From Escherichia phage CBA6: a stretch of 24,317 nucleotides of DNA. A program made the translations under genes and the position numbers. The stretch lies in sequence record KM389296.1; one strand, 5' to 3'. This document shows positions 1 through 23,361 of this stretch, in pieces. The notes beneath the pieces are model-generated. The model was not told where the DNA came from and made no database searches. It was given only the letters and a program-made list of their open reading frames with translations. Numbering within the stretch: position 1 is the stretch's first letter; the number at the start of each line of letters is the position of its first letter.

Positions 1-120
1 GAATTAAAGGCACATGGCTATAGCATATTTGAAATAAGCGAGTCGATGCCTTGGCATCTTGATTTGCTAACAGAGACACTAAAGATACGTTTGTCCAAGA
101 AATCTTCCAACCCCACGTAA
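1..120 (+). CDS. 3' end of an upstream plus-strand gene (partial, product unknown)
   Basis: Frame 1 is open from the window edge to TAA at 118-120 while the other two plus frames hit stops within the first 21 nt; the stop lies inside a terminator hairpin. Confidence 0.3.
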   Translation, partial: ELKAHGYSIFEISESMPWHLDLLTETLKIRLSKKSSNPT

Positions 121-135
121 TGTGGGGTTTTCTTT
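111..135 (+). terminator. Rho-independent terminator
   Basis: Stem CCCCAC (111-116) / GTGGGG (122-127) with loop GTAAT, followed by TTTTCTTTG. Confidence 0.6.
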
Positions 136-380
136 GTTTACCTGTTTTATAGGTTAAGACAGGAACGTTTAACCTTAAATTGCTATAACACCGTTGTTGC
201 TGAAGTAAGTGTTGTGTAAATTGGGGTTTGAATTTGTTTTGAAGCAAAAATAATCCTTTTCTACGCATGTTCTGAGGTGTACAGTATTTTCCTCGCCTTT
301 ATGCCTCCATGGCATTGGAATGGGACTGCCTGTCAAGGCGGTGTTACGAGCTTCAGCGAGTAGAAACGAAAAGAATAAAG

Positions 381-407
381 TTGAACGGAAGCAGAGCTTC
401 CTATAAT
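381..407 (+). promoter_or_regulatory. sigma70-like promoter candidate (TTGAAC, 15-nt spacer, TATAAT)
   Basis: TTGAAC at 381-386 and TATAAT at 402-407; spacer is shorter than the optimum, so weak. Confidence 0.25.
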
Positions 408-437
408 ATTACTATTCGACAGATTTCAAATCCCCGC

Positions 438-445
438 CATAAATA
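438..445 (+). promoter_or_regulatory. T4 late-promoter-like box CATAAATA (7/8 match to TATAAATA)
   Basis: Sits about 22 nt upstream of the ATG of the gp5-like baseplate gene, where a late promoter would be expected. Confidence 0.3.
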
Positions 446-466
446 ACCCATGATTCTAATTGACTA

Positions 467-2092
467 ATGGGTTTCAATATGTTAGACAACTTGCGTTGGT
501 TTTACGGGCGCGTTGAAGACGTGAACGATCCCGACCAGAACGGGCGCGTCGCTGTGCGCATCTATGGTGTACACACGGAAGATACCACTCTCTTACCTAC
601 CGAATTATTGCCTTGGGGTAAAATGCTCATGCCAGCATCTAACGCCTCCTCGGCAGGTTTAGGCTGGTCTCCAACGGGTATTACAGTCGGGTCGGATGTT
701 ATGGGATTTGCTTTGGATGAAGCATACCAAAATATTCGTATCGCCTGGGTTTGGCCAGCGGCGACACCAACGGATGGTTCAGACACAAACCCGTTGGCGC
801 TGGGCCAGGTTGTTCAATCTATAGAAAGACAGAAATATAACGCCGTTGAAAATGTTCCTGTCAAGATTGAAGACGACCCACAACCAGAACCTCAACCGCC
901 TGTGGACGGTTATGATCCTGAGAAATGGATGACAGTGGCTCGTGGTGAATTAGGTGTCAAAGAATATTCTGGCAAATTCAATAATAACCCAAGGATTTTG
1001 GAATATCACAAGACAACATCTTTGGGCGCTTCGGAAGATGAAGTCAGCTGGTGCGCTTCATTTGTGGGATGGGTGTTGATCCAAGCAGGATACACTTCAA
1101 CGCGCTCGGCTTTGGCTCGTTCATATTTGCAATGGGGTTCCCCTTTGTCGGAACCCCGCTACGGCGCTGTTGTTGTATTCCGGCGTGGCAACAACCCAAC
1201 ATTCGGACACGTTGCGTTCGTGCAGAAATTCGATGCCAATTATGTTTGGTGTATTGGAGGCAACCAATCAGATTCTGTGAAGGTGAGTCGCTTCAGCCGC
1301 TCATCTGTGTTGGGTTATCGTTGGCCTGGTCCTGCTACGACAGCATCGGCGGCTCCTGCGCAACAAAATGGTAAATGGTCTGAGCCAATCCCTGATCGTA
1401 CACCAAAAGTTCAGGAAACTCCGCCCCCTTCTGGGCGTGTTCAAGATATTGATAACACAGGAGAGGTGTCGGTTCCTTCTGCTGGCGGGTCTCGTTATCC
1501 TTACAACAATGTCATGGCATCTCGGTCAGGGCATATCATGGAGGTTGATGACACACCAGGCGGGGAACGTCTCCATTGGATGCACTCCTCGGGGTCTTAT
1601 AAGCAGATGCTTCCTGACGGGGACGTGGTCAATAAATCAGTCAAAGATCATTATGATCTGACGATGTTTGACAAACGTTACTATGTTGGTCGTGATCACA
1701 ACCTGACCATTGGTGGGACTGAAGTTCAGCGCAAGACAGGTGAGGTCTATCATCTACATTCATCGAACTACTCCAATGTGGTTGCTGGCACGGCGTTGAT
1801 GAAATTTTCACAGCTGGCCGAAATTCAGGCGCAAAACGTGATGCGTATCATCTGTGAGATGTTGGAAGTTTCCAATACTTTAAAAGTGCCTAAAATACTG
1901 GCGAGTGAAATAGTTTGTGATAAGTTGTCGGTGGCGCAGACTATTGAAGGCAACATCAAATATGCTGAAGGTGCTGGTCGTGCTGCATCACGCGCTGGGG
2001 CAACTCCAGTATCTACTTCTGGTCCTGGTCCAATTGATATAAAACCGGAACTGGAGGATAATGGCGGCAACTTTGGTGGTAAAGACGCATGA
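467..2092 (+). CDS. Baseplate central hub/spike protein (gp5-like) with cysteine-peptidase (CHAP/NlpC-P60-like) cell-wall hydrolase domain
   Basis: N-terminus MLDNLRWFYGRVEDVNDPDQNGRVAVRIYGVHTED resembles the gp5 N-terminal OB domain; Pro-rich linker; central Cys...His segment (VSWCASFVGWV ... GHVAFV) typical of CHAP/NlpC-P60 amidases; conserved-looking HIMEVDDTPGGERLHW segment. An alternative start at ATG 479 is possible. Confidence 0.8.
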   Translation: MGFNMLDNLRWFYGRVEDVNDPDQNGRVAVRIYGVHTEDTTLLPTELLPWGKMLMPASNASSAGLGWSPTGITVGSDVMGFALDEAYQNIRIAWVWPAATPTDGSDTNPLALGQVVQSIERQKYNAVENVPVKIEDDPQPEPQPPVDGYDPEKWMTVARGELGVKEYSGKFNNNPRILEYHKTTSLGASEDEVSWCASFVGWVLIQAGYTSTRSALARSYLQWGSPLSEPRYGAVVVFRRGNNPTFGHVAFVQKFDANYVWCIGGNQSDSVKVSRFSRSSVLGYRWPGPATTASAAPAQQNGKWSEPIPDRTPKVQETPPPSGRVQDIDNTGEVSVPSAGGSRYPYNNVMASRSGHIMEVDDTPGGERLHWMHSSGSYKQMLPDGDVVNKSVKDHYDLTMFDKRYYVGRDHNLTIGGTEVQRKTGEVYHLHSSNYSNVVAGTALMKFSQLAEIQAQNVMRIICEMLEVSNTLKVPKILASEIVCDKLSVAQTIEGNIKYAEGAGRAASRAGATPVSTSGPGPIDIKPELEDNGGNFGGKDA

Positions 2093-2156: not shown

Positions 2157-2537
2157 ATGAAAGAGTACAAGGACATTGACCTGAAGTTTGGCATGCATCC
2201 GGTCACCAAAGATGTCACAAAGAAAACAGGTGTCTATGCCGTGTTGCAATCCGTACGAAATATCGTGATGACAACAGTTGGGGATTGGCCGACATACCCA
2301 AGTATCGGGGCTGGGCTGTATACCATGCTGGGGGAAAATACGAATCCCACAATTCAGGTTGATGTTAAAAACAAAGTTGAAGACGCGATTGCTTTATTTG
2401 AACCGAGAGCGGAGATACAATCAGTTGATGTGTCATTGTCTGAAGATTATCATTCTCTGGGTGTAACCATAACGTTTTATGTGGTCAACAACCCAGAGCC
2501 GATAACAGATACCATATGGTTGAAACGGACAAATTAA
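2157..2537 (+). CDS. Baseplate wedge subunit gp25-like (126 aa)
   Basis: Size and layout match T4 gp25 (YKDIDLKF..., SVRNIVMTTVGDWPTYPSIG, C-terminal ITDTIWLKR). The track's 2124 start is GTG; ATG 2157 has an AAGGGG Shine-Dalgarno 8 nt upstream. Confidence 0.8.
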   Translation: MKEYKDIDLKFGMHPVTKDVTKKTGVYAVLQSVRNIVMTTVGDWPTYPSIGAGLYTMLGENTNPTIQVDVKNKVEDAIALFEPRAEIQSVDVSLSEDYHSLGVTITFYVVNNPEPITDTIWLKRTN

Positions 2538-8152: not shown

Positions 8153-8947
8153 TTAACAGAAACTCTTGTATGCCGCCGCTAGTTTGGTGTCATACTGGTT
8201 CTTGGCATATGCTGGACCATTGTACCGACGGGCGAACTCAGCCCAATTTTTGTTCTTCAATGCTTTCCACATATTGGCGTCAGCTTTGATGAATTTCACA
8301 AATGCCAGAAGATGTGCGCGTTCACCAGTCAGAAAATCTGTGAACATTTCTTTGGCGTTCGGATAACCACATATCTGGCAATTGAACCCCATGATCTGGA
8401 ATAAGCCGTAGGACGCACTCTCGTACGCGCAATCCTCATCAAGGGCGATTGCACCCTGAAGGCGTTCCAACTCCGCGTCTCCGCCGATATAGCCACCAGA
8501 ATTGGGGTTAACCAATGTTGGGTAAAGTTGGTACAGAGCATTGGCTCTTGCTTGTCCGAATTTAGCCGCCACTTTCTTATACATGATGTGGCGCTCGAAC
8601 AGAGTTTTGATCTTACCTGTTTTGGTGAAACCCGTTCCCCGAGATTCGACCTGGTTAACAGCTTTCATGCTGGCCAGTTCGACACCAAGTTCACGCGCTG
8701 CGTCAACTAAGTCGGCTTCGGTAAGATGTTCCTGATGAGCGTCTCCGGCATTACGGATAGCATAGAAGGTTTTTGGACCTGCAATACCATCAATCACCAG
8801 TCCGGCACCTGCCTGAACGGATTTGACAGCATTCTCGGTCGCTTTGCCAAATATGCCATCAGCTACAAGAGAGAACCCGATTTTATTGAGGCTTTGCTGA
8901 AGTGATTTGACTTCAGAACCTCGGTTGCCAAGTTTTAGAATGGCCAT
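8153..8947 (-). CDS. Endolysin: N-terminal peptidoglycan-binding domain plus C-terminal muramidase-like catalytic domain
   Basis: N-terminus LKLGNRGSEVKSLQQSLNKIGF...DGIFGKATENAVKSVQ is PG_binding_1-like; C-terminus (FERHIMYKK, GLFQIMGFN, NWAEFARRYNGPAYAKNQYDTKL) recalled as N-acetylmuramidase-type. No signal peptide or TM segment. Confidence 0.75.
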   Translation of the reverse strand: MAILKLGNRGSEVKSLQQSLNKIGFSLVADGIFGKATENAVKSVQAGAGLVIDGIAGPKTFYAIRNAGDAHQEHLTEADLVDAARELGVELASMKAVNQVESRGTGFTKTGKIKTLFERHIMYKKVAAKFGQARANALYQLYPTLVNPNSGGYIGGDAELERLQGAIALDEDCAYESASYGLFQIMGFNCQICGYPNAKEMFTDFLTGERAHLLAFVKFIKADANMWKALKNKNWAEFARRYNGPAYAKNQYDTKLAAAYKSFC

Positions 8948-13041: not shown

Positions 13042-15762
13042 TTATTTCAGACGGATCTGGAGATTACCACCCAGTGATTGTTCATATTCACTGTAAGCAC
13101 TGTCACCATTGCTCATAGCCCATTCGTCCGACTGACGGGCGCTATCCAAAGTCATGAGATTCGGTTCGGTCGGGTTGTATCCCTTCGCCTTCGCATCGTT
13201 GTATACCGTTTGCAGGTACTGGTTGGCACGGTTAATCTGATCTTTGAACTCACGATATGCACCTTCGGTTGTGTTGCGACGGAAGGTGATACTCCAATCG
13301 ACGTTAAGAACTGCGCCGCTATTGGTCACGTATACCTGCCAATCAAGATCTCGTCCGTTGGGAGCACTGTTGCGGATGGAATCGGAATATGTGGCCAGAT
13401 CGCTGCTGTTCTTGCCCCCAGCAGCTTGGTCTTTGGCGCGAGCCAGGGCATCAATGACTGCAGTGCGGTTTCTAGACTGCGCCAGATCTTTGTCTTGGAA
13501 CATAATTGCACCAAACTTACTGACGGTGATATCATTCAGAAACAGCTTGTTCGGGTTATAGTTTGATGAACTGAGATGGCTCAATTGAGCCGCAGCGTCT
13601 TTCAGGCGTTGTGAAGTCTCATTCAACGCATCTTGCACAGACTTGACAGATAACTGAATGTCATATCCGCTGCTGTTGACTACATTTCGGCCATTTTCGG
13701 TCAGCATGGTCGTGATGTTGGCCTTATTACGATCGAAGTCGTAAGTCACGTTCGTAACGAACCGTGCGGCTTGCAGCTGGCTACCCGCAGGGAACTGGAA
13801 GTCCCAAGCCACAGAGAACCCATGAACGGTTTCACCAAATATCTTCGCATTGCTTGGGGCTTTCAGGTTCGCAGTGATGACAGCGTTATCACTGGAATTT
13901 GTGTTGATTTCGCCGAAGATAGTCTTCCCATCAGAAGACTGGACCATCAGAGTATCTTTGCTGCGCCAGTCATAACGAACAATAAACGTCGTTCGAGGGA
14001 ACTCTTTTATCAGATCGAGTTTGACTGCCTTACCCAGAGTAAAACGATTTAACAATGCATCGGCGATCTTCAAAGTAAACGAAATACAATCGACATAAGA
14101 ATAACCCTGGGAACGGGAAACCTTTTGAATCGGGTATGGGGCACCGTTGATCGGAACAACACGACATTCCACTTCACCTTTGAACTGAGAATCAGCAGCG
14201 CGGGATATCGCACTGACGATTTCAAAAGCAGCGTTTTTCACGTCGCCTTCCAGCAGCAGCTGTTCATTGCCAGATAAATCAGAAACCACTTCTACAGAGA
14301 GTTTGCTGTTGACAATCCCCCAAAAATAGACTTGAATATCCAACCCGCCAGAAGTTCGATATTTGCCAGCACCAACCCGAGACAATTTTTCACCAGCATA
14401 CATGCCGACTTGCTGAGGAGCATATGTATCAACGATGCCCAAGATGCGGGCGATATAACCCTGGTTGCGCAGATCATCCATAGAACCGGTTTTTGGAAGA
14501 GTTTTCATGTCGACGGGAGCAGTAGCCCCTATTCCAAACTCGACGTATGCCACGATCTTCCCACCAGACTTCAGTTCCCAGCCCATTCCCTGACGGTCTG
14601 AAGCCGCCATGATTTTGCGATCCACTTCTCCACGCCCGACATATTCTTTGTTGAATACCGTCACTTGTGCGATAGACTGAGTGCGGGCAATCTTCGCCAT
14701 CGCGCCATCTTTGACCATGATAGCCAGGTCATTGGAACTCAGGGTCACGTCGTTCGCGCCGACCACCTTCACAACAGAACTGAAGATGCCGTTGGACTTT
14801 GCCATAACGGAGATGTTCCAGTCCGGATTTATGGAAGACGGTGCATCAGCATCAACGTCAACAGTCAAAACCACTTGCCCACCTTTCTTGAACACATACT
14901 GATCATAGATGCCTTTATTTTGTTTTGTCATGACAGCGCCGACCAGATCCTGGTTAGTGAATCCCCGCTTCATGCTCCATGCCACTTCGGTGCCGTCCGG
15001 ATATTTGTCGAAATCATACCCAAAGAACTTCGCCACTTCACGTGAGCCACTGACCAGCTGCACGTAATTTCCGCGAATTGGGTCACGGCCATTTTTCAGT
15101 TCAAGACTAGTGTCAGAACTGTTATACCATTGGCGGTTTACTTCAATCTCGGTGCTGGAGCCAGTCCCAACATCAGGGGTGTTGTTCTGAACCGGAACGT
15201 CTCCGACTTTGTCTGGATCGTCCCAAGTCACGCCTTTCATTTTCGGACCATCAAATACCTGAGCAGGATCCTTGCCTTTACGCACAACCCATACGAAGGC
15301 ACGGTCAGGGATTGGGGTATAAGTCAGATCCATGACGTTGAGTTTCTGCTTCAGACCAGATTGACGAATAATTTTTGGGAGTAACGTCGTTCCGCGTTCT
15401 AGAGCTTTCTTGGAGAAGTTAATCGCAAACCCATCAATGGTTTTACCCAGCGGTGTCGCCATGAATTGTTTAGTCGCTTCGATCATGGATGCGATGACAC
15501 GCATTGGGTTTTTGAAACGACCGATTGCGTCTGGATAGGTTGAACCACGTTTCTGGCCTATGAAGACCTGACGAACGTTCTTGCCCAGCCCCTGCGGGGT
15601 ATAAAATTGGATGCGGAATTCTTTTTCATCTTCGTCTACGAACGTGAAGAAAATGTCACCAGCATTTTTCTTGCCGAAAGTCAATTCGTATGGAGCGGAG
15701 TTAAACGCTTCGTCCAATTGTTTGGACTCGTCAAGGAAATTTAAGAAAGATTGGATGGCCAT
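13042..15762 (-). CDS. Large hypothetical protein (906 aa), function unknown
   Basis: Uninterrupted 2.7-kb ORF with ATG and AGGAG Shine-Dalgarno (AGGAGAATTACAATG); bracketed by hairpins; no catalytic motif recognised. Confidence 0.8.
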   Translation of the reverse strand: MAIQSFLNFLDESKQLDEAFNSAPYELTFGKKNAGDIFFTFVDEDEKEFRIQFYTPQGLGKNVRQVFIGQKRGSTYPDAIGRFKNPMRVIASMIEATKQFMATPLGKTIDGFAINFSKKALERGTTLLPKIIRQSGLKQKLNVMDLTYTPIPDRAFVWVVRKGKDPAQVFDGPKMKGVTWDDPDKVGDVPVQNNTPDVGTGSSTEIEVNRQWYNSSDTSLELKNGRDPIRGNYVQLVSGSREVAKFFGYDFDKYPDGTEVAWSMKRGFTNQDLVGAVMTKQNKGIYDQYVFKKGGQVVLTVDVDADAPSSINPDWNISVMAKSNGIFSSVVKVVGANDVTLSSNDLAIMVKDGAMAKIARTQSIAQVTVFNKEYVGRGEVDRKIMAASDRQGMGWELKSGGKIVAYVEFGIGATAPVDMKTLPKTGSMDDLRNQGYIARILGIVDTYAPQQVGMYAGEKLSRVGAGKYRTSGGLDIQVYFWGIVNSKLSVEVVSDLSGNEQLLLEGDVKNAAFEIVSAISRAADSQFKGEVECRVVPINGAPYPIQKVSRSQGYSYVDCISFTLKIADALLNRFTLGKAVKLDLIKEFPRTTFIVRYDWRSKDTLMVQSSDGKTIFGEINTNSSDNAVITANLKAPSNAKIFGETVHGFSVAWDFQFPAGSQLQAARFVTNVTYDFDRNKANITTMLTENGRNVVNSSGYDIQLSVKSVQDALNETSQRLKDAAAQLSHLSSSNYNPNKLFLNDITVSKFGAIMFQDKDLAQSRNRTAVIDALARAKDQAAGGKNSSDLATYSDSIRNSAPNGRDLDWQVYVTNSGAVLNVDWSITFRRNTTEGAYREFKDQINRANQYLQTVYNDAKAKGYNPTEPNLMTLDSARQSDEWAMSNGDSAYSEYEQSLGGNLQIRLK

Positions 15763-18571: not shown

Positions 18572-20905
18572 TCAATCCTTCTTAATCACTTCAGTCATGC
18601 CATTACGCAGACCATAACGGATGTTGTGTTGGAAATACTCTTGGAATTCCTGCTCGCGTTGACTGATAACGAACAGATTGTTCCCGCCAAATTTATGCTT
18701 CAGCATCTCAACCGATTCTTGTACGCCGCGCTCACTCATGTTCTCAAGGATTTCATCTAACACAAACAGGTTACATTGCACCGACGCCTTGAGGTTTGCA
18801 ACATCTCGTAAAGCTAATGTCACAGCCAGGTTCAGGCGACTACGCTGACCAGTAGATAATGAGAAGATGCTTTGCCCTTTACGACCTGCAGCGCTCATGG
18901 TGATTTCAAATGTATCATCAACAGCAATATCCAAGAACATATTGAGTGCTTCAAGATACTCGTTTATTTTACTATTGAGGAAAGGCAAATACAGGCTGAT
19001 AATTCGAGCCTTGGTCTGATCATCTTTTAGGAAGAACAGAAGATGGTTCAGGTCTTGCAATTTCTCATCCAACTCTACGCGCCGCGCATTCAGATCTTCC
19101 ATTAACGCCGTGATGCGAGCGATCTCTTCTTCCAGGGCGTCAGTTGGTGTCGGCTTAACCGCCAATTTACGCTCTAAATCGGCAATGGATGCCTCCAGAG
19201 GGGCACGGCGTGATTTCAGGCTGGTGAGTTTATCAGCCGTGTCGTTGATGCTCTTAGAGAGCTGCTCACGCGCTTGACGGATTGACGTCGTGATATCTTC
19301 ATAACGGGTGTCTACGGCCTTGAGGACGTCGTTAATTTTGGACTGTTGTTCCCGCTGTAAAGATGTTTTCTCAACAGCTGCCACATCATAGAATCCTTGG
19401 ATGTCGCGTTTTAATGCAGCGATCGCAGATTCCGCTTCTCGGATTTCATTGCGCAAAGCATCCAGTTCTTTGTCAACAACCGAAATCTGAGAAGATAATT
19501 CTGAATCTTTGACGTTGTAATTCTCAATCAGGGAATTAACTTCTTCTAGGGCTGTGTCAACCTGAAGAATCTTGTCAGTCAGTTCACTGATTTGTGGATA
19601 ATATTGACTTTCAATGCGTGATTTGGTATCGTCCGACACTAATTGCGTACACGTAGGGCAAGTGCCCATATCGTGGAAACGTTTGATGGCAGATTCATGT
19701 CCTTCCATTTCTGTTACGAATTTGATACGGAAGTTCTCACCCTGCTGACGCCGCGCTAATGCTTTGTTCAGTTCATCCAGGTTAGCATTCCGTTGGCTGA
19801 CCAGATCATTTTTACGTTCCGCGACTACCGCCATTCTCTCCCGAATTTCTTGTAATGAACGTTCGCCATCAGACACCTCGATACGTTCATAGTCTTCAGC
19901 CTTGGTATCAGCCTCATCCTGAACCGCTTGAATTTTGGCAAAATACTCGTCATTGATGGAATCGATATCCACCTTCATTTCAGCGTTCAGGCGATTACGG
20001 ACTTCTGATAATTCTGATTCCAATTTAGAGTCTTGAGCACGGGACTCTGTCAGTTGTTCCTGCACTGCGCCGATATCTGAATTCAGGCTATTCAGACGTT
20101 CCTTCTCTTGGACAAGGATATCCGCAGATTGTTGCTGAATCATCGCATTGGAATTATTGATCTGTTCCAACTGCGCTTGCTGGCCTTTTAGATTCACATC
20201 ATGAAAGGCGTAATCATTGGTGACCGTCGTGAGTTCGTTCGTTACCGCCTTGATAGATGCTTTAACATCCTCATTCATCAGGCTGAAGAAACCCAAGTCC
20301 CAAATTGTTTCAACCATGGCGCGGCGGTCAGCAGTATACATCTCTGTGAAAGGAATAAACTTCTCCTTGCCCAGAACCAAAGAGTTCTCGAACATCTTCT
20401 GGTCCACGCCGATGAGATTCACGATGTACTTGTTCATATCAGCTTTGGCCGCATCGTTCACGACTTGCTTCCACTCTCCTTCCACCATCTGATAAACTTC
20501 TACAAAATCTGGTTTGATACCCCGACGGACTTTCCATTCACTACCGCGAGTTGAGAACTCAACTTCACCCACGCATTCCTTTTTGTTTTGAGAGTTAACC
20601 AATCCGGCTTTCTTCTCTTTCTTGCTGTACGTGTCGTTGTACAGAACGAAGAACAGCAGCCAGACAAGCATGGTGGATTTACCAGCGCCATTGTCATCGG
20701 ATGTAACCAAGGTTGCCGAATTGCGTTGGTAATCAATTTCCATGAATTCATTACCGATAGAACGAAAGTTCTTAGCGCGACCACGATGGAAAGTCAGTTT
20801 GTGAGTAATTTCCCCACGGATTTCAAATGGTGCTTCAACAATAACAGGAGCGTCCGCTTCTTTCAACAGCGAACCAAATTTTGATAATAGATCTACGTTG
20901 CTCAT
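18572..20905 (-). CDS. Recombination endonuclease ATPase subunit (T4 gp46 / Rad50 / SbcC-like), 777 aa
   Basis: Walker A DNGAGKST, long coiled-coil, zinc hook CPTC, ABC signature LSTGQRSR, Walker B LFVLDEILE. Confidence 0.9.
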   Translation of the reverse strand: MSNVDLLSKFGSLLKEADAPVIVEAPFEIRGEITHKLTFHRGRAKNFRSIGNEFMEIDYQRNSATLVTSDDNGAGKSTMLVWLLFFVLYNDTYSKKEKKAGLVNSQNKKECVGEVEFSTRGSEWKVRRGIKPDFVEVYQMVEGEWKQVVNDAAKADMNKYIVNLIGVDQKMFENSLVLGKEKFIPFTEMYTADRRAMVETIWDLGFFSLMNEDVKASIKAVTNELTTVTNDYAFHDVNLKGQQAQLEQINNSNAMIQQQSADILVQEKERLNSLNSDIGAVQEQLTESRAQDSKLESELSEVRNRLNAEMKVDIDSINDEYFAKIQAVQDEADTKAEDYERIEVSDGERSLQEIRERMAVVAERKNDLVSQRNANLDELNKALARRQQGENFRIKFVTEMEGHESAIKRFHDMGTCPTCTQLVSDDTKSRIESQYYPQISELTDKILQVDTALEEVNSLIENYNVKDSELSSQISVVDKELDALRNEIREAESAIAALKRDIQGFYDVAAVEKTSLQREQQSKINDVLKAVDTRYEDITTSIRQAREQLSKSINDTADKLTSLKSRRAPLEASIADLERKLAVKPTPTDALEEEIARITALMEDLNARRVELDEKLQDLNHLLFFLKDDQTKARIISLYLPFLNSKINEYLEALNMFLDIAVDDTFEITMSAAGRKGQSIFSLSTGQRSRLNLAVTLALRDVANLKASVQCNLFVLDEILENMSERGVQESVEMLKHKFGGNNLFVISQREQEFQEYFQHNIRYGLRNGMTEVIKKD

Positions 20906-20907
20906 TA

Positions 20908-22023
20908 TTATGCATCCAATGTGTTCAGGCGTTGTTGGGCAGCATTATAGAATTGTTCTGCTAATTTGCAAACATTTTCAGGGCGCTGGATATTATTGGC
21001 GGCGCGGATATCTTTCTTTAGGACTTCCACAGCATCAGTCGCCACCATCTCTTCAGTGACTTCTACCTTCTCAGACGAGACTGTGATAGTCCGATCTATA
21101 AAGTTGTAATCGATGCATTTACAGCGCTTCAGCGCGTCGCAGAACTTTTCATAATGCTTGGCATTATCGCGGTTCTGTACAATCACTTTAACGATTTGCC
21201 CTTCAATACCCAAACCATTGTTTAGCCAATCTGGGTCAATCCAGTTTCCTTCGGTGTCGGAAGACATTTGGGTGTAGTCGTATTCGATGAATCGGAACAA
21301 CGTTTGTTGCTCGTTGTTGGGAATAAACAATTCCCCGCCTTTCATGTCGTCTACATAGAATCCTCGGTTCGTCCCGTCTTTATGGTCTTCCCAGGTAAGG
21401 TGATAAGGAGTCCCAATATACTGAATGTTACCTTCCATCGAACGGGTATGGAAATGTCCGGTATCCACGCGCTCGAACTTGGAAAGGAGCGCCAAGTCGA
21501 TCTGACCTTTATCACATACAGAGGACTGGTACATTTTGAACCCTGCCAACTCCAGATGCGCAAAACAGTACTTGGCGTCTGTATCTTGTATCGCTTTAAC
21601 AGATGCATCATAATTCTCTTTATTGATCCATGGGAGAAGCAATACCTTTTCGCCTTCAATCGAAACTTCAGTGGGTTCACTGTAATAATGATAGACGTCT
21701 GGCGCTAATTCATTCAGATAGGATGGCCAGTTGATACGGTTAGATTCTTCTAAGGTGATATCATGGTTTCCAACGATGCCATTCCATTTGATACCCGCCT
21801 TTCTCAGGGCTGGAGTCAGTTCATCTTTCAACCAATCTTTGTCGCGCCCGTACATAAATTTACGAACATCAAATGTGTCGCCGAATTGCCAAACTTCTTT
21901 AATGTCTGCATCTACCAATTCGGGAATAAAATAGTTGATGAGATAATTCTTTATGAATTCACGAACGTAACGGGAACCATTGCGGCTCCCGATGTGTAAA
22001 TCGCCAATTTTAGCAATCGCCAT
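20908..22023 (-). CDS. Recombination nuclease subunit (T4 gp47 / Mre11 / SbcD-like), 371 aa
   Basis: Calcineurin-like phosphoesterase motifs (IGDLHIG, GDTFD, GNHD, GHFH). The track's 22038 start is TTG; ATG 22023 has a GGAG Shine-Dalgarno. Confidence 0.9.
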   Translation of the reverse strand: MAIAKIGDLHIGSRNGSRYVREFIKNYLINYFIPELVDADIKEVWQFGDTFDVRKFMYGRDKDWLKDELTPALRKAGIKWNGIVGNHDITLEESNRINWPSYLNELAPDVYHYYSEPTEVSIEGEKVLLLPWINKENYDASVKAIQDTDAKYCFAHLELAGFKMYQSSVCDKGQIDLALLSKFERVDTGHFHTRSMEGNIQYIGTPYHLTWEDHKDGTNRGFYVDDMKGGELFIPNNEQQTLFRFIEYDYTQMSSDTEGNWIDPDWLNNGLGIEGQIVKVIVQNRDNAKHYEKFCDALKRCKCIDYNFIDRTITVSSEKVEVTEEMVATDAVEVLKKDIRAANNIQRPENVCKLAEQFYNAAQQRLNTLDA

Positions 22024-22780
22024 TATTCTTTTCTCCAACTGATTCGGCTAACAATGTGGGGCTGTCCATTATATCTTCAAGACTAAATTGAGTAGAGCCG
22101 AAGTCATTATCTGAATTATCTTCGGCGTCAGCGGTAATGGTATTTTCACTCTTCGTAAGACATTGAAGTATACCGCGAGGGATTTTCTTATTCTTTTCCT
22201 CTTCTTTGATAGCCGTTTGTTTTTGGCGTTCCTTTTCACGCTGGGCTTCTTTCTTATTTTCGAAATTACCGATGCGTTCACGAAAGTCCATCGTTATCCC
22301 AGTGCTATCAACGAAGGTTTGTTGTTGGAAGTCTGGGTCATCCGATAAAGCTGCGAACCCACCTGCTTCTTCAAAGGAACGCAATTTAATATAGTTGTGT
22401 TCTTCTTCACTCGTGAGTTTCTTGGCGAATGAGCGATCAGCACACATAGTCACCCAAGAGAAGAAGTTGATCTTTCCTTTCTTGCCGATATGGCTAACAT
22501 CAAAGGTGTGAAGGTAACGAAGGATGTTCACAACCGCTTCACTCACCATGTCTTCACGATATGGATAATCACGGTAGTTGTAGCGCATACTCATATTCTT
22601 GATTATCATCTGAACATTCATGGCCACATAATTGGGGATTCTTGGTAGGGGTGTTCCTTCGGCTAATGCCTTTTTACGAGCAGGGATCCAATCACGCAAT
22701 ATCCCCACAACTCGATCGTTATCTTCGTCAGTGAAATATTTGGTGACGTTATCACCCCTGTCTACAAAATTCATACCCAT
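22010..22780 (-). CDS. Late-transcription sigma factor (T4 gp55-like) with extended charged C-terminus
   Basis: Collinear with recalled T4 gp55 (ILRDWI; YVAMNVQMIIKNMSMRYNYRDY...LHTFD; NFFSWVTMCADRSFAKKL); position next to gp47/gp46 as in T4. The track's 22795 start is TTG; ATG 22780 has a GAGGA Shine-Dalgarno. Confidence 0.7.
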   Translation of the reverse strand: MGMNFVDRGDNVTKYFTDEDNDRVVGILRDWIPARKKALAEGTPLPRIPNYVAMNVQMIIKNMSMRYNYRDYPYREDMVSEAVVNILRYLHTFDVSHIGKKGKINFFSWVTMCADRSFAKKLTSEEEHNYIKLRSFEEAGGFAALSDDPDFQQQTFVDSTGITMDFRERIGNFENKKEAQREKERQKQTAIKEEEKNKKIPRGILQCLTKSENTITADAEDNSDNDFGSTQFSLEDIMDSPTLLAESVGEKNNGDC

Positions 22781-22791
22781 CGTGATAATCC

Positions 22792-23319
22792 TCAAATACC
22801 AATGAATTCATTGAAAGAACCAACAACCTTTCTGACCAGGAAACGATTATTTTCAAGAACCATCGAGCTATTTTCTTTGGCTCTGACGCTCCACTGATCT
22901 GCGATTTCGTTGCCGATATTCCCCGCATGACCTTTCACCCATTTTAATTCAAGTTCACAAATTGAACAAACTTTGTCATAATAATTGAACAATTCGAGTA
23001 GGAGTTCTGTGTTCTTAGGCGGCATCCCTTCATATTCCCATTTTCTACGCCACTCCAAAACACTATTGATAACATATTGGCTATCGGATATAATACGGGC
23101 TGGGGGAATACAGCGTTCACCGCAATTCGAGAATTTCCATAGAATCTTCAAGGCGTTTATAACCCCAAGCAACTCAGCGATATTATTCGTTGACGGTGGG
23201 GGTAAATACCCATAAAACACTTTCCATTGCTCTCCAGTGATTGGACTGATAGCAAATGCCCAACCTGCGGCTTGTGTCTTCTGCGGGGAAGATGCCCCGT
23301 CAGTGTATATTTCAATCAT
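22792..23319 (-). CDS. rnhA: Ribonuclease HI (bacterial RnhA-type)
   Basis: Catalytic motifs IYTDGA, NNIAELLGVINAL, SDSQYVINSV, WVKGHAGNIGNEIAD. The track's 23334 start is TTG; first ATG is 23319. Confidence 0.8.
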   Translation of the reverse strand: MIEIYTDGASSPQKTQAAGWAFAISPITGEQWKVFYGYLPPPSTNNIAELLGVINALKILWKFSNCGERCIPPARIISDSQYVINSVLEWRRKWEYEGMPPKNTELLLELFNYYDKVCSICELELKWVKGHAGNIGNEIADQWSVRAKENSSMVLENNRFLVRKVVGSFNEFIGI

Positions 23320-23361
23320 GTATAAGTATCCCAAACTGGTTTTATCGATGAGGAACGAATC

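What the first reader, a model, noticed from the sequence alone, without database searches (positions are those of the whole stretch)
467..2092. Baseplate hub carries a cysteine-peptidase-type hydrolase where T4 gp5 has a lysozyme
The N-terminus looks like the gp5 OB domain, but the enzymatic module after the Pro-rich linker has the Cys...His signature of CHAP/NlpC-P60 peptidases rather than a T4-lysozyme fold. The protein is also shorter than T4 gp5 and lacks an obvious long C-terminal beta-helix repeat. This implies a different cell-wall bond is cut during penetration and a different spike architecture.
Basis: partly seen in the sequence, partly recalled or inferred. Interest (0 to 1): 0.55.

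Follow-up and report, generated by a model that had tools for sequence, protein, structure and literature searches.

The report
Phage tail spike with cysteine-peptidase module
The gene is the tail-tip spike protein (gp5) of Salmonella phage Vi01, and it does carry a cysteine peptidase where phage T4 has a lysozyme, but this was already described in 2011 for this phage group and is written into current database annotations.

Summary
Window 467-2092 (+) is a real 541-aa ORF. It is 100% identical to Vi01_076, "Gp5-tail associated lysozyme", of Salmonella phage Vi01 (Ackermannviridae, Kuttervirus).

- The N-terminus is a T4 gp5 OB fold.
- A Pro-rich linker follows.
- Cys196, His248 and G264-G-N-Q-S268 are kept in ~40 homologues, down to ~31% identity.

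The architecture inference is not supported:
- Residues ~342-447 are clearly homologous to T4 gp5 385-490, the proximal half of the beta-helix.
- The C-terminal module is as long as T4's (200 versus 191 aa).
- Only the T4 octapeptide periodicity is missing.

The finding is not new. Kutter et al. 2011 (Virol J 8:430) described exactly this for the CBA120 orthologue: no lysozyme, and CHAP/TIGR02594 at aa 150-282 flanked by gp5-like regions. Hooton et al. 2011 listed "Gp5 OB & CHAP" for PhiSH19.

Still open are the bond cleaved (DL- versus DD-endopeptidase) and the structure of the distal 95 residues.

Interest is low.

The parts
467..2092 (+). CDS of the gp5-type central spike / baseplate hub protein (541 aa, Vi01_076). 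An alternative start at ATG 479 (Met5) would give the 537-aa form seen in orthologues.
   Evidence: ORF list. 100% tblastn identity to FQ312032.1 48036-49658. [quoted passage not shown] Orthologues start at MLDN.
485..781 (+). N-terminal OB-fold domain (residues ~7-105), homologous to T4 gp5 residues 6-91.
   Evidence: Pfam Gp5_OB 39-98, E 5e-10. phmmer to T4 gp5 and the KP1 spike. AF2 strands 10-96 with pLDDT 83-90. Foldseek top hits are T4 gp5, E ~1e-13.
782..904 (+). Linker 1 (residues 106-146): a predicted helix at 109-126, then the Pro-rich stretch DDPQPEPQPPV.
   Evidence: Sequence. AF2 pLDDT <50 for residues 111-143.
905..1336 (+). Papain-like cysteine-peptidase domain (residues 147-290): TIGR02594 subfamily of the NlpC/P60-CHAP superfamily. 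It occupies the position of the T4 lysozyme domain.
1052..1054 (+). Codon of Cys196, the predicted nucleophile. It lies in the motif VSWCASFVGW, at the N-terminus of helix 196-206.
   Evidence: Invariant in alignments A1 and A5. Kept in ~40 homologues. Aligned to the catalytic Cys of Tae3, CwlO and Acd proteins. Codon TGC.
1208..1210 (+). Codon of His248, the predicted general base. It lies in the motif TFGHVAFV, at the start of strand 247-255.
   Evidence: Invariant. Aligned to the catalytic His of solved NlpC/P60 enzymes. Codon CAC.
1256..1270 (+). Invariant G264-G-N-Q-S268 at the end of strand 259-264. It contains the probable third polar residue of the triad (Asn266, Gln267 or Ser268).
   Evidence: Invariant columns. 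The position corresponds to the third triad residue of NlpC/P60 enzymes; Tae3 uses Ser (PMC10318531). Which residue acts here was not resolved.
1337..1489 (+). Linker 2 (residues 291-341), rich in Pro/Ala/Thr/Ser. It is equivalent in position to the T4 gp5 340-388 linker, which holds the maturation cleavage site.
   Evidence: AF2 pLDDT <50 for residues 290-344. Sequence. Cleavage was not tested.
1490..1807 (+). Conserved gp5C-like region (residues 342-447), homologous to T4 gp5 385-490. In T4 this is the antiparallel sheet plus the proximal half of the triple-stranded beta-helix.
   Evidence: phmmer 341-436 against T4 384-477. hhalign probability 98%, E 1e-13. hmmsearch E 5e-18, T4 385-490. 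AF2 pLDDT 83-91 with strands 347-390 and then an extended chain.
1808..2089 (+). Distal C-terminal region (residues 448-541). It has no detectable similarity to T4 and no octapeptide periodicity. It ends in a family-conserved motif, I525..L529.D531.GGNF536.
   Evidence: Periodicity test. No Pfam hit. AF2 pLDDT falls below 50 after residue ~472. Invariant motif in 10 Ackermannviridae orthologues.
2157..2537 (+). Downstream gene for the gp25-type baseplate wedge / sheath initiator. It places the spike gene in a baseplate gene context.
   Evidence: Pfam GPW_gp25, E 2.9e-9; phrog_261/43. Annotation Vi01_077.

Best explanation
Window 467-2092 encodes the central spike (gp5 orthologue) of the contractile tail of Salmonella phage Vi01. 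It has three modules joined by flexible linkers:
- an N-terminal OB fold, which in T4 seats gp5 on the hub;
- a TIGR02594-type NlpC/P60-family cysteine peptidase, with Cys196, His248 and a third polar residue in G264-GNQS268;
- a C-terminal gp5C-type module, whose proximal half is homologous to the T4 triple-stranded beta-helix.

**Inferred mechanism, by analogy with T4.** The protein is a trimer at the tip of the tail tube. On sheath contraction the spike is driven through the outer membrane. The three peptidase domains are then released or exposed in the periplasm. There they locally open the peptidoglycan by cutting stem peptides or cross-links rather than the glycan backbone, so that the tube can reach the inner membrane.

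**Most likely bond.** The most likely target is gamma-D-Glu-meso-DAP (DL-endopeptidase). The meso-DAP-D-Ala cross-link (DD-endopeptidase, as in Tae3 and MepS) is a serious alternative.

**What is shown.** Gene identity, domain architecture, conservation of the catalytic residues, the fold, and virion association in close relatives (from published proteomics).

**What is inferred.** The trimeric state, the position in the baseplate, the timing of action and the bond cleaved.
For: - **Identity and context:** 100% identity to Vi01_076, with gp26 upstream and gp25 downstream.
- **OB and gp5C homology to T4 gp5 and the solved KP1 spike:**
- **Peptidase domain:** TIGR02594 at 133 bits against a cutoff of 70.55; CHAP at 40.7 bits against a cutoff of 26.
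- **Conservation:** W-C...G-H...GGNQS is kept in all but one (P0041, Cys->Ala) of ~40 homologues with the domain.
- **Virion association:** the ViI protein was found in virion proteomics according to PMC3184105. The orthologue of Vi01-like phage Sajous1 ('Tail associated lysozyme') was recovered by mass spectrometry (PMC10892097).
- **Separate endolysin:** an unrelated endolysin lies at window 8153-8947. The hub enzyme is therefore not the lysis enzyme.
Against: - No enzymatic data were found for this protein or for any Ackermannviridae orthologue. A 2017 review lists only phi6 gp5 as a proven endopeptidase among the virion lysins of Gram-negative phages (PMC5380687).
- Bond specificity is ambiguous. 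The structural neighbours are mostly DL-endopeptidases. The closest solved protein by sequence is Tae3 (E 6e-5), which to my knowledge cuts the DD cross-link.
- The trimer and the distal 95 residues could not be modelled: only a monomer AF2 run was possible, and pLDDT is below 50 after residue ~472.
- No gp27 or PAAR partner was identified by sequence.
Confidence: 0.85

Rival explanations
1. The architecture is the same, but the enzyme is a DD-endopeptidase that cuts the meso-DAP-D-Ala cross-link, or a MurNAc-L-Ala amidase, rather than a gamma-D-Glu-mDAP DL-endopeptidase.
For: - The invariant Ser268 could mimic the Cys-His-Ser triad of Tae3 (PMC10318531).
- Some CHAP domains are amidases (PMC10318531).
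Against: - Kutter et al. assigned a D,L-glutamate-specific amidohydrolase type, by database annotation only.
Confidence: 0.3
2. The peptidase-like module is catalytically inert. It serves only as a peptidoglycan-binding or spacer domain of the spike, and penetration is purely mechanical.
For: - No activity data exist.
- To my knowledge, the T4 gp5 lysozyme activity is reported as dispensable under laboratory conditions.
- One distant homologue (P0041) has Cys->Ala.
Against: - Cys196, His248 and GGNQS are invariant across Ackermannviridae and in distant homologues down to ~31% identity. That pattern is expected under selection for catalysis.
- Related TIGR02594 domains occur as stand-alone phage endolysins and as T6SS effectors.
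Confidence: 0.07
3. The database label is right, and the protein is a true tail lysozyme (glycosidase) like T4 gp5.
For: [quoted passage not shown] These were inherited from T4 by homology of the flanking domains.
Against: - There is no Phage_lysozyme, SLT or glycoside-hydrolase hit at E<=1.
- phmmer and hmmsearch align only the N- and C-terminal parts to T4 gp5 and skip T4 residues ~92-383.
- The fold searches return no lysozyme.
Confidence: 0.01
4. The distal C-terminus (448-541) is not a continuation of a T4-like beta-helix. It forms a different tip, for example a short coiled coil or a partner-binding tail, which would make this a variant spike.
For: - No sequence similarity to T4 beyond residue ~447.
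- No period-8 signal. The hydrophobic spacing in 444-497 is mostly 3-4 residues, with negative autocorrelation at lag 2.
- pLDDT is below 50 after residue 472.
- Some genera add a further ~70-80 aa domain after the conserved GGNF motif.
Against: - AF2 predicts an extended, non-helical chain with pLDDT 84-89 up to about residue 465.
- Conservation of gp5-like beta-helices is known to decay towards the C-terminus (PMC4576200).
- The module length matches T4's.
Confidence: 0.3

Closest known systems
gp5 orthologue of Escherichia phage CBA120 and of the other ViI-like phages (Ackermannviridae), as described by Kutter et al. 2011 (Virol J 8:430, PMC3184105) and Hooton et al. 2011 (PMC3220722)
   Same: It is the same protein family (the 537-aa form is 99% identical) with the same three-part architecture. 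The paper states that there is no identifiable lysozyme, a CHAP/TIGR02594/NlpC_P60 domain at aa 150-282, and T4 gp5-like regions at aa 3-109 and 334-437. These boundaries match the ones found here.
   Different: Nothing substantive differs. This work adds conservation of the catalytic residues, a confident fold model, structural neighbours, and the test of C-terminal periodicity.
Bacteriophage T4 gp5 (cell-puncturing device; PDB 1K28, 1WTH)
   Same: It shares the N-terminal OB fold and the proximal gp5C module (T4 6-91 and 385-490). It has the same order of domains with long linkers, a similar total length, and a baseplate gene context.
   Different: The middle domain is a GH24 T4-type lysozyme in T4 (residues 174-339) and a Cys-His peptidase here. 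The T4 VxG octapeptide periodicity is absent. In T4 the hub lysozyme is a paralogue of the endolysin, whereas here the endolysin (window 8153-8947) is unrelated.
Hub or tail-tip cysteine peptidases of contractile and other injection machines that target Gram-positive cells: the diffocin hub-hydrolase CD1368 (8V3W), the phi812 hub protein lytic domain (9EUF/9EUM), and the Andhra gp10 tail tip lysin (8EJ5)
   Different: The hub scaffolds differ, with no gp5 OB + gp5C frame. The targets are Gram-positive. Sequence identity is only 11-18%.
TIGR02594 family / T6SS amidase effector Tae3 (4HZ9) and TIGR02594-type T6SS effectors and phage endolysins
   Same: It is the same peptidase subfamily by profile. 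Tae3 is the nearest solved structure by sequence (E 6e-5). These enzymes are likewise delivered by a contractile injection device into the periplasm of Gram-negative cells.
   Different: Those proteins are free cargo or stand-alone enzymes with immunity partners. Here the domain is fused into the spike itself.

Membership tests
T4 gp5-type central spike protein (PHROG 430; Pfam Gp5_OB) | N-terminal OB-fold domain of the gp5 type | tested here: met
   Pfam PF06714, E 5e-10, above the cutoff. phmmer to T4 gp5 6-91. Foldseek E ~1e-13 to 1K28/1WTH/9F4A.
T4 gp5-type central spike protein (PHROG 430; Pfam Gp5_OB) | C-terminal gp5C module (triple-stranded beta-helix) | tested here: inconclusive
   The proximal half is met: residues 342-447 align to T4 385-490, hhalign 98%, and AF2 gives an extended chain with pLDDT 83-91. 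The distal 95 aa show no similarity, no period-8 repeat and no Gp5_C Pfam hit. Trimer formation could not be modelled.
T4 gp5-type central spike protein (PHROG 430; Pfam Gp5_OB) | Central T4-lysozyme (GH24) domain | tested here: not met
   There is no lysozyme hit in Pfam, PDB sequence or fold searches. This feature defines T4 gp5 itself, not the wider family. Relatives with an OB domain carry M15 or lysozyme modules, and two peptidase-bearing hits carry SLT (Pfam lists).
T4 gp5-type central spike protein (PHROG 430; Pfam Gp5_OB) | Structural component of the virion baseplate | not testable with these tools
   Literature only. The ViI orthologue was seen in virion proteomics (cited in PMC3184105). 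The Sajous1 'Tail associated lysozyme' was recovered by MS (PMC10892097).
T4 gp5-type central spike protein (PHROG 430; Pfam Gp5_OB) | Partners: a gp27-type hub trimer and a PAAR (gp5.4) tip | tested here: inconclusive
   Vi01_036 (phrog_350 'tail protein') is a candidate for gp27 by position only, with no sequence match to T4 gp27. No PAAR gene is annotated next to gp6. The genome-wide search was not completed.
NlpC/P60-CHAP papain-like peptidoglycan peptidases (TIGR02594 subfamily) | Profile match above the curated thresholds | tested here: met
   TIGR02594 at 133 bits against 70.55. CHAP PF05257 at 40.7 bits against 26.
NlpC/P60-CHAP papain-like peptidoglycan peptidases (TIGR02594 subfamily) | Catalytic Cys at a helix N-terminus and His on the following beta-sheet, both conserved | tested here: met
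   Cys196 starts helix 196-206 and His248 starts strand 247-255. Both are invariant in alignments A1 and A5, and all but one of ~40 domain-bearing homologues keep them. Both align to the catalytic residues of Tae3, CwlO and Acd proteins.
NlpC/P60-CHAP papain-like peptidoglycan peptidases (TIGR02594 subfamily) | Third polar triad residue | tested here: inconclusive
   An invariant GGNQS (264-268) sits at the expected position.
NlpC/P60-CHAP papain-like peptidoglycan peptidases (TIGR02594 subfamily) | Alpha+beta papain-like fold | tested here: met
NlpC/P60-CHAP papain-like peptidoglycan peptidases (TIGR02594 subfamily) | Hydrolysis of a defined peptidoglycan peptide or amide bond | not testable with these tools
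   This needs a muropeptide assay. No published assay for this protein was found.

The most novel reading that the evidence does not exclude
The Ackermannviridae spike differs functionally from T4's in two ways, neither yet tested.
- Its peptidase is a Tae3-like cross-link-cutting DD-endopeptidase rather than a DL-endopeptidase. That would make it the first tailed-phage virion endopeptidase of a Gram-negative host with a defined bond.
- The last ~95 residues form a tip that is not a T4-type beta-helix, ending in the invariant I..L.D.GGNF motif. Some genera extend this tip by an extra ~70-80-aa domain, and it may replace or recruit the membrane-attacking tip.
Probability: 0.2. Interest if true: 0.4.

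Novelty: already known. Interest (0 to 1): 0.15.

Why it matters
This is a clear example of cassette exchange of the enzymatic module within a conserved spike scaffold (OB fold + gp5C). Relatives found here carry other modules in that scaffold: a lysozyme or an M15 peptidase; two hits pair an SLT domain with the peptidase, one of them in the OB + gp5C frame.

There are practical consequences:
- The widespread product name 'tail lysozyme' is chemically misleading for all ~280 Ackermannviridae genomes in the phage collection.
- A spike-borne peptidase would be insensitive to defences or inhibitors aimed at lysozymes. This is an inference.
- The domain is a candidate enzybiotic module against Enterobacteriaceae.

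None of this is new in principle. The architecture has been in the literature since 2011. What is still missing is biochemistry and a baseplate structure.

Tried and rejected
- **PDB search with the isolated domain:** phmmer gave nothing significant. A family profile was needed to reach Tae3 and the NlpC/P60 proteins.
- **Cryo-EM structure of an Ackermannviridae baseplate:** searched for and not found in the library.
- **Ackermannviridae review:** PMC11721090 does not discuss gp5 at all.
- **Pickard et al. 2010 (Vi01 proteomics):** the paper is not held, so virion association rests on secondary citation and on PMC10892097.
- **gp27 partner:** Vi01_036 has no Pfam hit and no PDB sequence match.
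- **PAAR gene next to gp6:** none is annotated. I did not pursue this genome-wide.
- **C-terminal pieces and the small upstream ORF:** Pfam gave nothing for the distal C-terminus, for the Limestonevirus-type C-terminal extension, or for the 43-aa upstream ORF.
- **Rfam on the whole window:** no hits.
- **Rejected reading:** that the protein is a lysozyme as annotated.
- **Rejected reading:** that the short length implies a truncated spike. The difference comes from a shorter OB/linker region and a smaller enzyme domain (145 against 166 aa), not from the C-terminal module.

Full report
**Origin of the window.** The first 8 kb match ViI-like Salmonella and Escherichia phages at 98.5-99.9% identity. 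The ORF at 467-2092 translates to a protein 100% identical to Vi01_076, "Gp5-tail associated lysozyme", of Salmonella phage Vi01 (FQ312032.1; Ackermannviridae, Kuttervirus). In that genome the gene lies between gp26 (baseplate hub) and gp25 (baseplate wedge / sheath initiator; window 2157-2537). The nrdA/nrdB/grx genes and the endolysin lie further on, on the opposite strand.

**The observation.**
- *ORF:* it is 541 aa long.
- *N-terminus:* residues 39-98 hit Pfam Gp5_OB (E 5e-10, above the gathering score). Residues 7-87 align to T4 gp5 6-91 and to the solved spike of Klebsiella phage KP1.
- *Linker:* a Pro-rich stretch, DDPQPEPQPPVDG, follows.
- *Middle domain:* residues 154-286 match NCBIfam TIGR02594 end to end (E 8e-39, 133 bits against a cutoff of 70.55). 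Residues 191-266 match Pfam CHAP.
- *No lysozyme:* no lysozyme, SLT or other glycosidase family appears at E <= 1. The alignments to T4 gp5 skip the T4 lysozyme region entirely.
- *Length:* the protein is 34 residues shorter than T4 gp5.
- *No repeat:* the T4 octapeptide periodicity is absent. BLOSUM self-similarity at lag 8 has z = 7.7 in T4 436-559 and z = 0.9 in Vi01 395-505.

**The peptidase module.**
- *Conservation:* in 15 full-length or partial homologues down to 31% identity, the invariant residues are W195-C196, F199, H248-V249 and G264-G-N-Q-S268. All but one of about 40 database homologues that contain the domain keep W-C...G-H...GGNQS. The exception is P0041, which has Cys->Ala and carries a TIR domain. 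A domain-only alignment gives the same invariant set.
- *Model:* AlphaFold on the domain alone gives pLDDT 93.3 and pTM 0.89. Cys196 sits at the start of a helix and His248 at the start of a strand, which is the papain-like arrangement.
- *Sequence neighbours:* by sequence profile, the nearest solved protein is Tae3 (E 6e-5), with the Cys and His aligned.
- *Full-length fold search:* Foldseek returns T4 gp5-type spikes first (E ~1e-13), then NlpC/P60 domains, and never a lysozyme.

**The C-terminal module.**
- phmmer, hhalign (probability 98%, E 1e-13) and a family-profile hmmsearch (E 5e-18) all align Vi01 ~342-447 to T4 gp5 385-490.
- According to PMC4576200, T4 389-427 is an antiparallel sheet, and residues 428-575 form the intertwined helix.
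- The AF2 monomer reproduces this pattern. It has strands at 347-390, then an extended, non-helical chain with pLDDT 83-91 up to about residue 465.
- From the first aligned residue to the end, the module is 200 aa in Vi01 and 191 aa in T4. The spike is therefore not truncated.
- The same paper notes that conservation of gp5-like helices decays towards the C-terminus.
- Residues 448-541 remain unassigned. They show no similarity to T4, no Pfam hit and low pLDDT after residue 472. Their hydrophobic spacing is not obviously that of a beta-helix.
- The extreme C-terminus carries a motif, I525..L529.D531.GGNF536, that is invariant in ten Ackermannviridae orthologues. Several genera append a further ~70-80 residues after it.

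**Mechanism.**
- *Shown:* the architecture, the catalytic-residue conservation and the fold.
- *From the literature:* the ViI protein and its Sajous1 orthologue are virion components (PMC3184105; PMC10892097).
- *Inferred from the T4 paradigm:* a trimeric spike on the tail axis is driven through the outer membrane on contraction. Its three peptidase domains then cut peptidoglycan peptides locally in the periplasm.
- *Bond cleaved:* this is unresolved. The structural neighbours favour gamma-D-Glu-mDAP. The sequence neighbour Tae3 and the hit to MepS keep a DD-endopeptidase reading alive.
- *Not the lysis enzyme:* the phage's endolysin (window 8153-8947, PG-binding + DUF3380 type) is unrelated. 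The hub enzyme is therefore neither the lysis enzyme nor a paralogue of it, unlike in T4.

**Comparison with what is known, and novelty.**
- Kutter et al. 2011 (PMC3184105, section "Baseplate Lysozyme") wrote the following of the 537-aa CBA120 orthologue. [quoted passage not shown] It is flanked by regions (aa 3-109 and 334-437) that also flank the catalytic region in T4 gp5.
- Hooton et al. 2011 list the PhiSH19 orthologue as "Gp5 OB family & CHAP domain".
- The precomputed Pfam annotation of the protein cluster shows PF05257 + PF06714. NCBI names one member "TIGR02594 family protein".
- BFVD holds many phage tail lysozymes and endolysins with the same domain.
- Hub-embedded cysteine peptidases are structurally documented in machines that target Gram-positive cells.
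- Proteins with a gp5 OB domain and other enzyme modules (lysozyme or M15 peptidases) turned up in the same search; SLT appeared only in two hits that also carry the peptidase domain.
- The finding is therefore correct but already known. I found neither an enzymatic characterisation nor a baseplate structure for this family.

**Verdict.**
The enzyme swap holds. A "different spike architecture" is not supported, except possibly for the distal tip.
- Novelty: already known.
- Interest: 0.15.

Noticed in passing
window 1-466 (L001 11494-12000): There is a 507-bp unannotated gap between gp26 and gp5. A 43-aa ORF with a GTG start begins just upstream of the window and ends at window ~120, inside a strong terminator-like hairpin (109-129, 9 bp, followed by a T-run). 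After it come ~340 nt with no ORF longer than 45 aa and no Rfam hit. CATAAATA at 437-444 resembles the T4 late-promoter motif TATAAATA.
   Followed up: partly
window 467-481: The start codon is ambiguous. Vi01 is annotated from ATG 467 (MGFNMLDN...), but most orthologues (536-537 aa) begin at the equivalent of ATG 479 (MLDN...).
   Followed up: partly
window 8153-8947 (-): This is the phage endolysin (phrog_1224; annotated as a peptidoglycan-binding protein, PG_binding + DUF3380). It is unrelated to the hub enzyme, whereas in T4 the gp5 lysozyme and the endolysin are paralogues. Kutter et al. 2011 had reported that no lysis enzyme could be identified.
   Followed up: partly
window 2039-2074 (residues 525-536); homologues P0014, P0016, P0019, P0021, P0022: The C-terminal motif I..L.D.GGNF is invariant in ten Ackermannviridae orthologues. 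Orthologues from Serratia, Erwinia and other hosts (605-617 aa) add ~70-80 residues after it, ending in a conserved G.KP....S.G..WE. This extension has no Pfam match. It may be an extra tip domain.
   Followed up: partly
protein P0041: This 336-aa metagenomic protein combines a TIR domain (PF13676) with a TIGR02594 domain whose catalytic Cys is replaced by Ala. It may be an inactivated peptidoglycan-binding module in a defence-type protein.
   Followed up: no
L003 1807-3195 (Vi01_036, outside the window): This 462-aa 'tail protein' (phrog_350) lies directly after gp48 and gp53 and before a 646-aa putative tape-measure gene. By position it is a candidate for the gp27-type hub partner. It has no Pfam hit and no sequence match to T4 gp27 in the PDB.
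   Followed up: partly
window 13042-15762 (-): This 906-aa ORF (annotated shorter, as Vi01_094c 'phage associated protein') matches only phrog_3867, of unknown function. It has no Pfam domain above threshold.
   Followed up: no
window 18572-22038 (-): An SbcC-like / SbcD-like (gp46/gp47-type) nuclease pair is followed by the late sigma factor (gp55-type, 22010-22795) and an RNase H (22792-23334). This is ordinary T4-like replication and late-transcription content.
   Followed up: no
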